Shown: piece by piece, positions 46,301 through 49,300 of the stretch
Numbering within the stretch: the first letter of the stretch is position 1
Layout: every line of letters begins with the position of its first letter
Program-made: the position numbers
Assembly (NCBI RefSeq): GCF_029227855.1
Contig: NZ_CP074356.1
Reading direction: 5' to 3' (one strand)
Source: Escherichia coli
GTDB taxonomy: Bacteria; Pseudomonadota; Gammaproteobacteria; Enterobacterales; Enterobacteriaceae
DNA length: 64,000 nt

Positions 46301-49300
46301 GAGGCCTGGCTGATTGTTTCCCCCGAAGTCACCAAGATCATGGCCAAAGAACAAACGGACCGTACGACATTAGATCTGTTCGCGCACGAGCGTCGACCGG
46401 GACGACCGAAAACTAATCCGCTTTCGCGCGATGAACAGCTGCGTATTAATAAACGCAACCAGCTAAAACGCGACAAAGTACGTGGCCTTAAGCGTGTCGA
46501 ACTGAAGCTGAACGCGGAAGCTGTCGAGGCGCTGAACGAGCTGGCGGAGTCGCGCAATATGAGCCGTAGCGAACTGATCGAAGAGATGTTAATGCAGCAA
46601 CTGGCGGCGCTGCGTAGTCAGGGCATCGTTTAAATTTCCACTTTCATGTAGCACAGTGTGCAGTCCTGCTCGTTTGCTGATTCCGCAAGACTGCCTGTTC
46701 TGCTATGATTGCCTTTATCCGTGGGCAATTTTCCACCCCCATTTCAATAAGTTTCAAGAGGTTATTTCACTCATGGCTATCACTGGCATCTTTTTCGGCA
46801 GCGACACCGGTAATACCGAAAATATCGCAAAAATGATTCAAAAACAGCTTGGTAAAGACGTTGCCGATGTCCATGACATTGCAAAAAGCAGCAAAGAAGA
46901 TCTGGAAGCTTATGACATTCTGCTGCTGGGCATCCCAACCTGGTATTACGGCGAAGCGCAGTGTGACTGGGATGACTTCTTCCCGACTCTCGAAGAGATT
47001 GATTTCAATGGCAAACTGGTTGCGCTGTTTGGCTGTGGCGACCAGGAAGATTACGCCGAATATTTCTGCGACGCCTTAGGCACCATCCGCGACATCATTG
47101 AACCGCGCGGTGCAACCATCGTTGGTCACTGGCCAACCGCGGGCTACCACTTCGAAGCGTCAAAAGGTCTGGCTGATGATGACCACTTTGTCGGTCTGGC
47201 TATCGACGAAGACCGTCAGCCGGAACTGACCGCTGAACGTGTAGAAAAATGGGTTAAACAGATTTCTGAAGAGTTGCATCTCGACGAAATTCTCAATGCC
47301 TGATGTGATGCGGCGTAGACTCATGTCTACGCCGTATTAATAGATAATGCCAATCAAAATAATTGCTACAAATTTGTAACTTTTGCTGTTGTACCTGTAC
47401 AATGTCCCAGTGTTCAAGTGGCCTTGCCGTTGTAAATGTAAGCAGTGCCACGTTTTTATTAACAATATTTGCCAGGGACTTGTGGTTTTCATTTAGGCGT
47501 GGCAATTCTATAATGATACGCATTATCTCAAGAGCAAATTCTGTCACTTCTCCTAATGAAGTGAACCGCTTAGTAACAGGACAGATTCCGCATGACTGAT
47601 AACAATACCGCCCTAAAGAAAGCTGGCCTGAAAGTAACACTTCCTCGCTTGAAAATCCTGGAAGTTCTTCAGGAGCCGGACAACCATCACGTCAGTGCGG
47701 AAGATTTATACAAACGTCTGATCGATATGGGTGAAGAAATTGGTCTGGCTACGGTATATCGCGTACTGAACCAGTTTGACGACGCTGGTATCGTCACCCG
47801 CCACAATTTTGAAGGCGGTAAATCCGTATTTGAACTGACACAGCAACATCACCACGATCACCTGATCTGCCTCGACTGCGGCAAGGTAATCGAATTTAGT
47901 GATGATTCCATCGAAGCGCGTCAGCGTGAAATTGCCGCAAAACATGGCATTCGCCTGACTAACCACAGTCTCTATCTTTACGGTCACTGTGCCGAAGGCG
48001 ATTGCCGCGAAGATGAGCACGCGCACGAAGGCAAATAAGCCAGCCGGAACGAGAAAAGCCAACCTGCGGGTTGGCTTTTTTATACACGGGAAATAATAAA
48101 TATCCTCCGGCATAGCCGGAGGTTTTTCAAATGCGCCTATAAGGCTCTCTTACCAGCCGCGCCCTAACAGGCGCACACGATCTGACATTTGCATCCAACT
48201 TCGTTACTTACGGCCCGTAAACGGGCTGCCCGGATAGGGAATCGATAACTGCTCTCCCATTTTATCCTCTTCAAGCTGGTGCTTTATGTAATCCTGTATC
48301 TTCGCCGTGTTCTTACCCACCGTATCGACGTAGTACCCTCTGCACCAGAACTCCCTGTTCCTGTATTTGAATTTCAAATCACCAAACTGCTCGTAAAGCA
48401 TCAGACTGCTTTTCCCTTTCAGATATCCCATAAAGCCGGATACGCTCATTTTGGGCGGGATCTCCACAAGCATATGGATATGATCTGCACAGCATTCAGC
48501 TTCCAGAATCCGTACACTTTTCCACTCACACAGCTTTCTCAAAATACTGCCTATTGCTCTACGCTTCTCTCTGTAGAACACCTGTCTTCGGTATTTTGGC
48601 GCAAAAACTATGTGATATTTACAGTTCCATCGGGTGTGCGCTAAGCTCTTTTCGTTCCCCATTGGGACCCCCTTTTGATTTCTTGTTTGACACTTGCAGT
48701 TGCCAGACCGCAAGGTGTTTTAACAAATCAAAAGGGGTTTTAATAACTGGCTTAAAGCTGAAAGCTTTCCGGAACCCCCAGCCTAGCTGGGGGTTTTCTG
48801 TGCACAAGAAAAGCGAGAGTTACAGCTCTCACTTATTTGTTATTACTGCGAATTTCCTGCCAGACCTTATCACAGTCGGCTTTTACCGCCTGATCATTTC
48901 CGGTTTGCGTTGCGCGCAGACACTGCTGATAATCCAGTACGCGGACACTTTCCTGATCGGCAAACTGCTGATGTTGTTTCTCTTTCTTCAGCACGTTTAA
49001 CACGCTCTGGCAGGCTTCAATTTTTTCTGGCGAACCTTGTGCGGTGTTGATACAGGCGCTGTATGCCTCTTTCAGACGGCTGTCTTCCTGTGGCGCGGTT
49101 GATTGCGCACAAGCCACCAGCCCCGATGCCATCATGGCGATGAGAATCAGTTTTTTCATAGCAAATTCCTCAAACGTGCGGCAGGCACAAAACCTGCCGC
49201 GTCGGGCATCAGAAGATGGTGAATGGTGCGATTACCATAAATTTCACGTCACGCTCATCCTGGAAGATGTTGCCGTAACCACCGCCCCAGCTTGGGATGT

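What the first reader, a model, noticed from the sequence alone, without database searches (positions are those of the whole stretch)
48100..48810. IS200-like element with intact tnpA inserted between the convergent fur and chiQ genes
A 152-aa Y1/HuH transposase gene (MGNEKSLAHTRWNCKYHIVFAPKYRR...HIHMLVEIPPK...) lies between the fur terminator and the chiQ stop. Its upstream end has the structure expected of IS200: a perfect palindrome (48773-48795) that can block read-through from outside, and a long inverted repeat (48668-48680 with 48726-48737) that would sequester the tnpA ribosome-binding site. K-12 has no IS200 as far as I recall, so this is a strain-specific insertion. It sits in a terminator region and disrupts no coding sequence.
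Basis: partly seen in the sequence, partly recalled or inferred. Interest (0 to 1): 0.55.

Follow-up and report, generated by a model that had tools for sequence, protein, structure and literature searches.

The report
Intact IS200C in the chiQ terminator
This is an ordinary, intact copy of the known E. coli insertion sequence IS200C that recently landed in the T-run of the chiQ transcription terminator, the kind of site this family of mobile elements almost always chooses.

Summary
Window 48097-48807 (711 bp; each end uncertain by 2 nt) is a complete IS200-group insertion sequence on the minus strand.

- **Identity:** it is 711/711 identical to copies that RefSeq annotates as IS200C. It encodes an intact 152-aa Y1/HUH transposase (Pfam Y1_Tnp 4e-38; NCBIfam transpos_IS200 147.7 bits).
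- **Left-end structures:** both published IS200 structures are present. [quoted passage not shown] Rfam STnc490 matches at 146 bits.
- **Insertion site:** K-12 and the near-clonal relative JNEC-KY178 have an 83-bp fur-chiQ spacer without it. None of 5,426 complete E. coli genomes has a copy at this site. JNEC-KY178 is otherwise identical over the 64 kb, apart from SNPs inside one Rhs gene, so the insertion is very recent.
- **Added detail:** the element sits inside the T-tract of the chiQ terminator hairpin, with its left end next to the hairpin. The same holds for about 116 independent IS200-group insertions in many taxa (flank MFE median -16.6 vs -5.8 kcal/mol). As I recall, this hot-spot behaviour was reported for IS1541 in 1998, and a 2025 preprint reports it statistically.

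Known element, new but unremarkable location; low interest.

The parts
48097..48807 (-). Complete IS200C insertion sequence, 711 bp. Boundaries are ambiguous by 2 nt (could be 48095-48805), because TT occurs at both junctions and once in the empty site.
   Evidence: Empty-site comparison with JNEC-KY178 and K-12. 711/711 identical to IS200C copies in L004, L006 and L007.
48204..48662 (-). tnpA, 152-aa Y1/HUH transposase. HUH motif at H61-I-H63, catalytic Tyr125, Gln129.
   Evidence: Y125F is the catalytically dead mutant in PMC4513863.
48773..48795 (.). Left-end perfect palindrome (10-bp stem, 3-nt loop). It corresponds to the published bidirectional terminator of IS200 (nt 12-34), which shields tnpA from outside transcription. 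On the + strand it is followed by TTTTCTG.
   Evidence: (I5). Function taken from PMC4513863, not tested here.
48669..48737 (-). 5'UTR stem-loop of tnpA whose lower stem pairs with the Shine-Dalgarno sequence (AAGGGGGT, 48674-48667). Corresponds to IS200 nt 69-138.
   Evidence: I1. Rfam RF01405 alignment. Function from PMC4513863.
48672..48795 (-). Match to Rfam RF01405 (STnc490 Hfq-binding RNA), full model 1-124.
   Evidence: 146.1 bits against a gathering score of 56, E = 3.5e-31.
48654..48743 (+). Inferred position of the antisense sRNA art200. In Salmonella it is 90 nt and complementary to the 5'UTR plus the first three tnpA codons. It would end at the TTTT that follows the big hairpin on the + strand.
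   Evidence: Inference by collinearity with Salmonella IS200 as described in PMC4513863. No expression data here.
48104..48122 (.). Right-end subterminal hairpin CCTCCGGC-ata-GCCGGAGG. It is followed by TTTTT on the + strand, which looks like a terminator facing fur. On the - strand it is followed by ATATTTA(TT), the right-end tail and probable tnpA terminator.
   Evidence: (I3). Compensatory variant CCACCGG...CCGGTGG in Vibrio and Mailhella copies.
48132..48175 (.). Second imperfect inverted repeat in the right end (TGCGCCTATAAGG / CCTAACAGGCGCA), between the tnpA stop and the right-end hairpin. Role unknown.
   Evidence: (I4).
48811..48834 (-). Host target: the chiQ (chiPQ) terminator hairpin AAGTGAGAG-ctgtaa-CTCTCGCTT. 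It overlaps the chiQ stop codon. Its T-tract TTCTT|ATTT is split by the insertion.
   Evidence: Empty-site fold of L003.
48088..48096 (-). Distal remainder of the split chiQ terminator T-tract (top strand TTATTTCCC), now beyond the right end.
48054..48082 (+). fur intrinsic terminator (AAAAGCCAACC-tgcg-GGTTGGCTTTTTT). Intact and 15 nt outside the element.
   Evidence: (I2).

Best explanation
The feature is a complete, apparently functional copy of IS200C, the E. coli member of the IS200 group of the IS200/IS605 family. It transposed very recently into the T-tract of the intrinsic terminator that follows chiQ.

How it works, taken from the family literature and not tested here. The 152-aa TnpA is a Y1 HUH endonuclease. 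It excises the top strand as a single-stranded circle and pastes it into single-stranded target DNA ('peel and paste').

Transposase expression is kept very low by features that are all present here:
- the left-end palindrome, which terminates incoming transcription, in this case from chiPQ;
- the 5'UTR stem-loop, which buries the ribosome-binding site;
- an antisense sRNA (art200), inferred here by collinearity with Salmonella IS200 and not shown by any data for this copy.

The right-end hairpin followed by TTTTT faces fur, so the element is insulated on both sides.

Target choice, inferred from my comparison of 116 sites. Elements of this group insert on the strand that reads 'GC-rich hairpin, then T-run'. 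The cut falls 3' of a TNTT, usually 6-9 nt past the last G/C pair of the hairpin. That geometry matches the element's own right end (hairpin, then 9 nt ending TATT). Here the cut is after CTCTCGCTTTTCTT in the chiQ terminator.

The insertion breaks no gene. It leaves the chiQ hairpin in place with a shortened U-tract and adds two further hairpin terminators, so little effect on fur or chiPQ is expected.
For: Identity:
- Pfam Y1_Tnp 4.4e-38.
- NCBIfam NF033573 147.7 bits, cut-off 55.
- PDB relatives are IS200-type transposases 2ec2, 2f5g and 2a6m.
- Rfam STnc490 146 bits.
- 711/711 identity to annotated IS200C copies.

Anatomy:
- Searches match the published map in PMC4513863.

Recent insertion:
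- The site is empty in K-12 and JNEC-KY178.
- No copy lies at fur-chiQ in 5,426 complete genomes.
- JNEC-KY178 is 100% identical over window 48806-64000 and 1-24000. It differs over 23000-48100 only by 57 SNPs inside an Rhs gene.

Target rule:
- All 8 E. coli copies examined abut a hairpin plus T-run at the left end.
- For 116 unique left-end flanks from about 35 genomes, median MFE is -16.6 against -5.8 kcal/mol at random positions (Mann-Whitney 8e-62).
- Hairpin plus T-rich tail is found in 76/116 flanks against 33/5000 controls.
- In 27 full-length copies the left flank folds at -10 kcal/mol or better in 27/27, the right flank in 4/27.
- The cut lies 6-9 nt after the last G/C pair in 60/76 sites; the right end's own distance is 9.

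Strand:
- The element's top strand equals the K-12 + strand in the right replichore. That is the lagging-strand template, in line with the reported family bias (PMC5027513).
Against: - Nothing contradicts the identity.
- Activity of this copy is inferred from intactness and from the recent insertion, not shown.
- The literature calls IS200 'essentially immobile' (10.1101/2024.06.26.600842), so a recent hop is somewhat at odds with that generalisation. Copy numbers of up to 36 places per E. coli genome argue otherwise.
- The target-geometry model is correlative. The random-position control was mostly coding DNA.
- The exact cleavage position cannot be fixed because TT lies at both junctions.
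- The chiQ hairpin is one of the weaker targets (-11.6 kcal/mol).
Confidence: 0.95

Rival explanations
1. The element is old at this site in this clone, and the close relative JNEC-KY178 lost it by precise excision. IS200/IS605 elements excise seamlessly, so absence in a relative does not prove a new insertion.
For: Family members excise precisely and restore the donor site (family mechanism; PMC2806898). The empty site in JNEC-KY178 is seamless.
Against: None of 5,426 complete genomes has a copy at fur-chiQ, including the next-closest relatives at 99.0% identity. A single gain is more parsimonious than gain plus loss.
Confidence: 0.08
2. It is a dead relic: structurally complete but no longer mobile, as IS200 is generally described.
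For: IS200 is described as essentially immobile and dormant. Three layers of translational repression are present.
Against: - The ORF is intact with HUH and Y125.
- Both ends are intact.
- It is 100% identical to copies at other loci in other strains.
- This site is occupied only in this strain, against an otherwise identical 64-kb background.
- There are up to 36 places per genome.
Confidence: 0.1
3. The insertion matters to the host. It could change termination or 3'-end stability of chiPQ or fur mRNAs, or add one more source of the 5'tnpA/art200 regulatory RNAs described in Salmonella.
For: The chiQ terminator U-tract changes from UUUUCUUAUUU to UUUUCUUGUG. IS200 5'UTR-derived sRNAs regulate host genes in Salmonella (PMC5435999 and 10.1101/2024.06.26.600842).
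Against: The hairpin and most of the U-tract are retained, and two extra hairpin terminators follow. The lineage already carries about 24 other matching places in JNEC-KY178, so one more copy adds little RNA. There are no expression data.
Confidence: 0.1
4. Assembly artefact: a repeated IS placed at the wrong locus by the assembler.
For: IS200 copies are identical repeats that commonly break or confuse assemblies; many MAG contigs end inside them.
Against: Both junctions are clean. They obey the family-specific rule exactly: left end after hairpin plus T-run, TT at both junctions, a 711-bp net gain and no loss of host bases. A chimeric join would not reproduce this.
Confidence: 0.02

Closest known systems
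IS200C of Escherichia coli (IS200 group, IS200/IS605 family)
   Same: 711/711 nt identical to copies annotated as IS200C in E. coli strains 7/2, 4621 and AR_0067. Same TnpA (WP_000526135.1 at those loci), same ends.
   Different: Only the location. No copy lies at fur-chiQ in 5,426 complete genomes. The nearest recurrent sites are the glnS terminator (24 genomes including CFT073) and the nagE terminator.
IS200 of Salmonella enterica (the founding member)
   Same: - A single tnpA and a length of about 707-710 bp.
- Left-end terminator at nt 12-34 and SD-sequestering stem-loop at nt 69-138, which map to 48795-48773 and 48738-48669 when numbering starts at 48806.
- The Rfam STnc490 model is matched end to end.
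- The catalytic residue is Y125.
   Different: A different sequence variant; I did not measure the identity to Salmonella IS200. art200 and 5'tnpA functions were shown in Salmonella, not for this copy.
IS1541 of Yersinia pestis
   Same: 87.5% nt identity over the full length. Same ends, same TT at both junctions, same terminator-type flanks.
   Different: Higher copy number, and head-to-tail tandem dimers (L104, L105, L107) that are not seen in the window.
IS608 / ISDra2 (mechanistic paradigms of the family)
   Same: - Homologous Y1 HUH TnpA (2a6m 3.9e-19, 2xm3 1.9e-16).
- Subterminal hairpins and no terminal inverted repeats.
- Insertion 3' of a short sequence.
- The active strand lies on the lagging-strand template.
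   Different: - IS608 and ISDra2 carry tnpB and recognise TTAC or TTGAT with no requirement for a target hairpin.
- Here there is no tnpB.
- The left and right hairpins are unrelated in sequence.
- Targets are a hairpin followed by TNTT.
Group IIC introns (bacterial class C)
   Same: From my own knowledge, they also home to the T-run just 3' of intrinsic-terminator hairpins, in one orientation. This is a harmless 'safe haven'.
   Different: They are unrelated retroelements (ribozyme plus reverse transcriptase). The resemblance is in niche only.

Membership tests
IS200/IS605 family, IS200 group | Encodes a Y1 HUH transposase (TnpA) of the IS200 type | tested here: met
   Pfam PF01797 4.4e-38, model 2-121 of 121. 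NCBIfam NF033573 equivalog 147.7 bits against a cut-off of 55. PDB hits are IS200-type transposases.
IS200/IS605 family, IS200 group | HUH motif and a single catalytic tyrosine are intact | tested here: met
   H61-I-H63 and Y125 (then Q129), read from the translation. Y125F is the catalytic-dead allele in PMC4513863.
IS200/IS605 family, IS200 group | tnpA only (no tnpB); total length about 0.7 kb | tested here: met
   711 bp by empty-site comparison. The only family-matched ORF is tnpA.
IS200/IS605 family, IS200 group | No terminal inverted repeats; subterminal hairpins at both ends | tested here: met
   The ends TTGTGCAC... and ...GGATATTTA are not inverted repeats. Hairpins lie at 48773-48795 and 48104-48122.
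IS200/IS605 family, IS200 group | No target-site duplication; insertion 3' of a short specific sequence | tested here: inconclusive
   TT is present once in the empty site and at both junctions in every copy. This fits an element that carries one TT and cuts after TNTT, but a 2-bp TT duplication cannot be formally excluded from sequence alone.
IS200/IS605 family, IS200 group | IS200-specific left end: terminator palindrome plus a 5'UTR stem-loop that hides the Shine-Dalgarno sequence | tested here: met
   Rfam RF01405 146.1 bits over model 1-124. Fold z = -4.5 with the SD in the lower stem. Coordinates agree with PMC4513863.
IS200/IS605 family, IS200 group | Single-strand 'peel and paste' transposition | not testable with these tools
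   This needs biochemical or genetic assays. The only supporting sign is that the top strand lies on the inferred lagging-strand template.
IS200C (named element) | Nucleotide identity to the ISfinder reference IS200C | not testable with these tools
   ISfinder is not available. As a proxy, the element is 100% identical over 711 nt to three loci whose tnpA RefSeq/PGAP names 'IS200/IS605-like element IS200C family transposase'.

The most novel reading that the evidence does not exclude
IS200-group transposases may choose targets by structural mimicry of their own right end. Any GC-rich hairpin followed 6-9 nt later by TNTT on single-stranded DNA, which is what a host intrinsic terminator looks like, would be treated like the right end (hairpin, then 9 nt ending TATT) and cut there. 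The conserved GAAAA just 5' of both element hairpins could act as the guide that pairs with the T-run. If so, the host terminator rather than a plain tetranucleotide is the real target. That would explain why the element is nearly harmless and why insertion polymorphisms such as this one arise even though IS200 is described as immobile.
Probability: 0.4. Interest if true: 0.5.

Novelty: already known. Interest (0 to 1): 0.2.

Why it matters
For the window itself it matters little. It is a correctly recognised, known insertion sequence in a harmless intergenic position.

Its modest value is as a clean natural example:
- The 64-kb background is otherwise identical to a sequenced relative, apart from SNPs inside one Rhs gene, and differs by exactly one IS200C. 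This shows that the supposedly dormant element still moves in E. coli.
- The junctions illustrate with base-pair precision the family's habit of landing in the T-run of intrinsic terminators.

The insertion could serve as a strain or clone marker. The 116-site comparison gives a concrete, testable geometry for target recognition by IS200-group transposases.

Tried and rejected
- **Other copies in the window:** none found.
- **Same insertion elsewhere:** none among 5,426 complete E. coli genomes. The 24 apparent '100% coverage' hits, including CFT073, turned out to carry IS200C at the glnS terminator about 3 kb away, not at fur-chiQ.
- **Promoter scan of 47900-49000:** no sigma-70-like site. 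The tnpA promoter is known to be weak and undefined, so this says nothing.
- **Weak Rfam hits:** snR67 and COG3860 were below gathering scores and I dismissed them as chance.
- **Literature:** I tried to read primary or review sources on IS200/IS1541 target choice. The He et al. 2015 DOI, PMC106867, PMC146608 and PMC7190074 are not held. What I say about Odaert et al. 1998 is therefore from memory.
- **Literature searches:** searches found no explicit mechanistic account of terminator targeting by IS200. They found only the statistical note in preprint 10.1101/2025.07.22.666184.
- **Host hairpin as part of the element:** rejected, because the hairpin differs at every site and is present in the empty site.
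- **Purifying selection as the sole cause of the terminator association:** rejected as sufficient, because position and orientation are fixed to within a few nucleotides.
- **Not done:** I did not scan metagenomes for the junction, because the expected gain was too small for the cost.
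Full report
**1. Observation.**
- A 152-aa ORF runs on the minus strand from ATG 48662 to the stop at 48206-48204. Its product starts MGNEKSLAHTRWNCKYHIVFAPKYRR and contains HIHMLVEIPPK.
- fur ends at 48038 on the plus strand and is followed by its terminator (48054-48082).
- chiQ ends at 48833 on the minus strand.
- The perfect palindrome AACCCCCAGC/cta/GCTGGGGGTT occupies 48773-48795.
- The long inverted repeat is 48669-48684 with 48722-48737.
- When the left end is folded as RNA, the lower 13 pairs (48669-48681 with 48725-48737) cover the Shine-Dalgarno sequence AAGGGGGT, 5 nt upstream of the ATG. 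The 168-nt left end folds better than all 200 shuffles (z = -4.5).

**2. Identity.**
- The protein matches Pfam Y1_Tnp (PF01797) at 4.4e-38 over the whole model.
- It matches the NCBIfam equivalog NF033573 'IS200/IS605 family transposase' at 147.7 bits, against a cut-off of 55.
- Its closest solved relatives are the IS200-type transposases of Sulfolobus (2ec2, 2f5g), then IS608 TnpA (2a6m) and ISDra2 TnpA (2xm3).
- The HUH motif (H61-I-H63) and Tyr125 are present. Y125F is the catalytically dead allele used by Ellis et al. (PMC4513863).
- Rfam RF01405 (STnc490, the Hfq-binding RNA of the IS200 5' region) matches 48795-48672 end to end at 146 bits, against a gathering score of 56.
- Megablast against 5,426 complete E. 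coli genomes finds near-full-length copies in 2,041 of them, with up to 36 places per genome. These are annotated 'IS200/IS605-like element IS200C family transposase'.
- The window copy is 711/711 identical to copies at three unrelated loci in three strains.
- Yersinia pestis IS1541 is 87.5% identical over the full length.

**3. Ends and insertion site.**
- K-12 MG1655 and strain JNEC-KY178 have an 83-bp fur-chiQ spacer...GGTTGGCTTTTTTATACACGGGAAATAA|GAAAAGCGAGAGTTACAGCTCTCAC....
- The window has exactly 711 extra bases at the bar, 48097-48807. Because of shared A/T at the junction, the insert could equally be 48096-48806 or 48095-48805.
- If numbering starts at 48806, the palindrome falls at nt 12-34 and the stem-loop at nt 69-138. 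These are the published coordinates for Salmonella IS200.

**4. Age of the insertion.**
- No complete E. coli genome carries the element at fur-chiQ.
- The 24 genomes that seemed to cover the whole 2.3-kb query, including CFT073 and a set of porcine ETEC strains, have their copy behind glnS, about 3 kb away.
- JNEC-KY178 is 100% identical to window 1-24000 and 15,195/15,195 identical to 48806-64000.
- Over 23000-48100 it differs by 57 SNPs, all between 28857 and 33388 inside an Rhs core gene, plus one mismatch at 48097 where the alignment runs into the insertion junction.
- So the IS is the only structural difference across 64 kb. This indicates a very recent insertion or, less parsimoniously, a precise excision in the relative.
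- This sits awkwardly with the general statement that IS200 is essentially immobile.

**5. What the site is.**
Read on the element's top strand (window minus strand), the left end is preceded by AAGTGAGAG-CTGTAA-CTCTCGCTT-TTC. This is a hairpin that overlaps the chiQ stop codon, and in the empty site it is followed by TTCTTATTT, which makes it a candidate intrinsic terminator for chiPQ. The IS therefore splits the T-tract of that terminator.

I checked whether this is typical:
- All 8 E. coli copies I fetched (7 distinct sites) have a GC hairpin plus T-run immediately 5' of the left end. These include the terminators of nagE, glnS, ynaL-side and others.
- A scan of one genome per species for the left-end palindrome returned 120 loci. 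They come from Y. pestis, Vibrio ruber, Dickeya, Brenneria, Enterococcus, and MAGs of Bacillota, Mailhella/Desulfovibrio, Oxalobacter, Ruminococcus and others.
- Of 116 unique, non-tandem left-end flanks, 93 have a contiguous hairpin of at least 5 bp ending within 9 nt of the element, against 11.8% of random positions. 76 also have a T-rich tail, against 33 of 5,000 controls.
- Median MFE of the 38-nt flank is -16.6 against -5.8 kcal/mol (Mann-Whitney 8e-62).
- As an internal control, in 27 full-length copies the left flank folds at -10 kcal/mol or better in 27/27 and the right flank in 4/27 (Wilcoxon 3e-6).
- The reconstructed empty sites read as textbook terminators, 'hairpin-TTTT^TTTT'.

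Caveats:
- The scan pattern fixed the palindrome arms, so their conservation is by construction.
- Sites from one genome are not fully independent.
- The random control is mostly coding DNA.

**6. Cleavage geometry (inference).**
- Every copy with a reliably aligned left end begins TT-G (76/76), and every right end is followed by TT.
- In Y. pestis tandem dimers a single TT separates ...GGATATTTA from GTGCCC....
- The simplest reading within the family mechanism, which recognises only bases 5' of the cut, is that the element is 5'-G...TATT-3' and is cut and joined 3' of TNTT at both ends. The flank tetranucleotide is then TTTT in 40 sites, TGTT in 11, TATT in 9 and TCTT in 6 of 76. The window has TCTT, and the right end itself has TATT.
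- The cut lies 6-9 nt beyond the last G/C pair of the host hairpin in 60/76 sites. The right-end hairpin is 9 nt from the right-end cut. Host terminators thus resemble the element's own right end.
- The right-end stem shows a compensatory variant, CCTCCGG/CCGGAGG against CCACCGG/CCGGTGG.
- GAAAA immediately 5' of both element hairpins might be the guide that pairs with the T-run, as in IS608. It could equally be there to provide U-tracts for termination on the opposite strand. I cannot separate these two readings.

**7. Orientation.**
chiPQ are on the K-12 plus strand at 708-710 kb, in the right replichore. The window is the reverse complement of that, and its plus strand has net negative GC skew. 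The element's top strand is therefore on the lagging-strand template. This is the orientation reported to be favoured in this family (PMC5027513). It rests on the assumption that the strain has K-12-like chromosome organisation.

**8. Consequences for the host (inference).**
- No ORF is broken.
- The fur terminator is intact and lies 15 nt outside the element. Beyond it, the right-end hairpin followed by TTTTT forms a second terminator-like structure on the fur strand.
- The chiQ hairpin is kept, but its U-tract changes from UUUUCUUAUUU to UUUUCUUGUG.
- Any read-through then meets the left-end palindrome, which is described as a terminator that protects tnpA from impinging transcription.
- I expect little or no phenotype.

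**9. What is already known.**
- IS200, IS1541 and IS200C are long-described elements.
- Their left-end terminator, SD-sequestering stem-loop, antisense art200 and Hfq control are published (PMC4513863, PMC5435999).
- From memory, since the paper is not held: Odaert et al. 1998 (J Bacteriol 180:178) reported terminator-like stem-loops at 8 of 14 IS1541 insertion sites and proposed them as hot spots.
- My comparison sharpens the picture (near-universal occurrence, one orientation, fixed spacing, resemblance to the right end) but does not establish a new phenomenon.

**10. Verdict.**
- The feature is an already known element, IS200C, at a previously unrecorded but typical and harmless site.
- Interest is low (0.2).
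- The most novel reading that remains open is right-end mimicry as the basis of terminator targeting. I give it a probability of about 0.4 and moderate interest if true.

Noticed in passing
window 28857-33388: All 57 SNPs between the window and its near-clonal relative JNEC-KY178 cluster inside one Rhs element core gene (L130 6547-10698, equal to window about 29546-33697) and its immediate surroundings. The remaining roughly 58 kb has none. This suggests gene conversion between rhs copies, or assembly differences in a repeat.
   Followed up: partly
L001 3463-4173; L002 3462-4172; L004 1507-2217: Two other terminators within about 10 kb of this site carry IS200C in other lineages. One is the glnS terminator (24 complete genomes including CFT073 and porcine ETEC). 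The other is the nagE terminator (strain 7/2 and other listed strains). Three neighbouring terminators have therefore been hit independently.
   Followed up: partly
L104 1-1044; L105 1986-3405; L107 11930-13349 (Yersinia pestis NCTC5923): Head-to-tail tandem IS1541 dimers in which the right end (...GGATATTTA) abuts the next left end (TTGTGCCC...) with a single TT between them. This fits the right end itself being a target, or integration of a circle junction.
   Followed up: partly
L009-L102 (genome-contig scan): Exact matches to the 23-nt IS200 left-end palindrome occur in MAGs and isolates far outside Enterobacteriaceae. Examples are Enterococcus sp. BWB1-3, Bacillota, Ruminococcus, Mailhella/Desulfovibrio, Oxalobacter, Saccharibacteria and Elusimicrobiaceae, often at contig ends. 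The flanks look host-specific, so this is probably a real wide distribution rather than contamination, but I did not check.
   Followed up: no
window 61549-62252: Cluster of seven tRNA genes (Met-Leu-Gln-Gln-Met-Gln-Gln) downstream of asnB. This is the standard E. coli metT-leuW-glnUW-metU-glnVX operon, and JNEC-KY178 has the same cluster. Nothing unusual.
   Followed up: yes
window 48132-48175: A second imperfect inverted repeat (TGCGCCTATAAGG / CCTAACAGGCGCA) lies in the IS200C right end, between the tnpA stop and the subterminal hairpin. I found no described role for it.
   Followed up: no
window about 27501-28268 (from L130 4502-5269): The relative's annotation shows an ISAs1-family transposase pseudogene (ybfD) and an Rhs C-terminal fragment next to the Rhs core gene. 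This is a typical Rhs locus with orphan tips.
   Followed up: no
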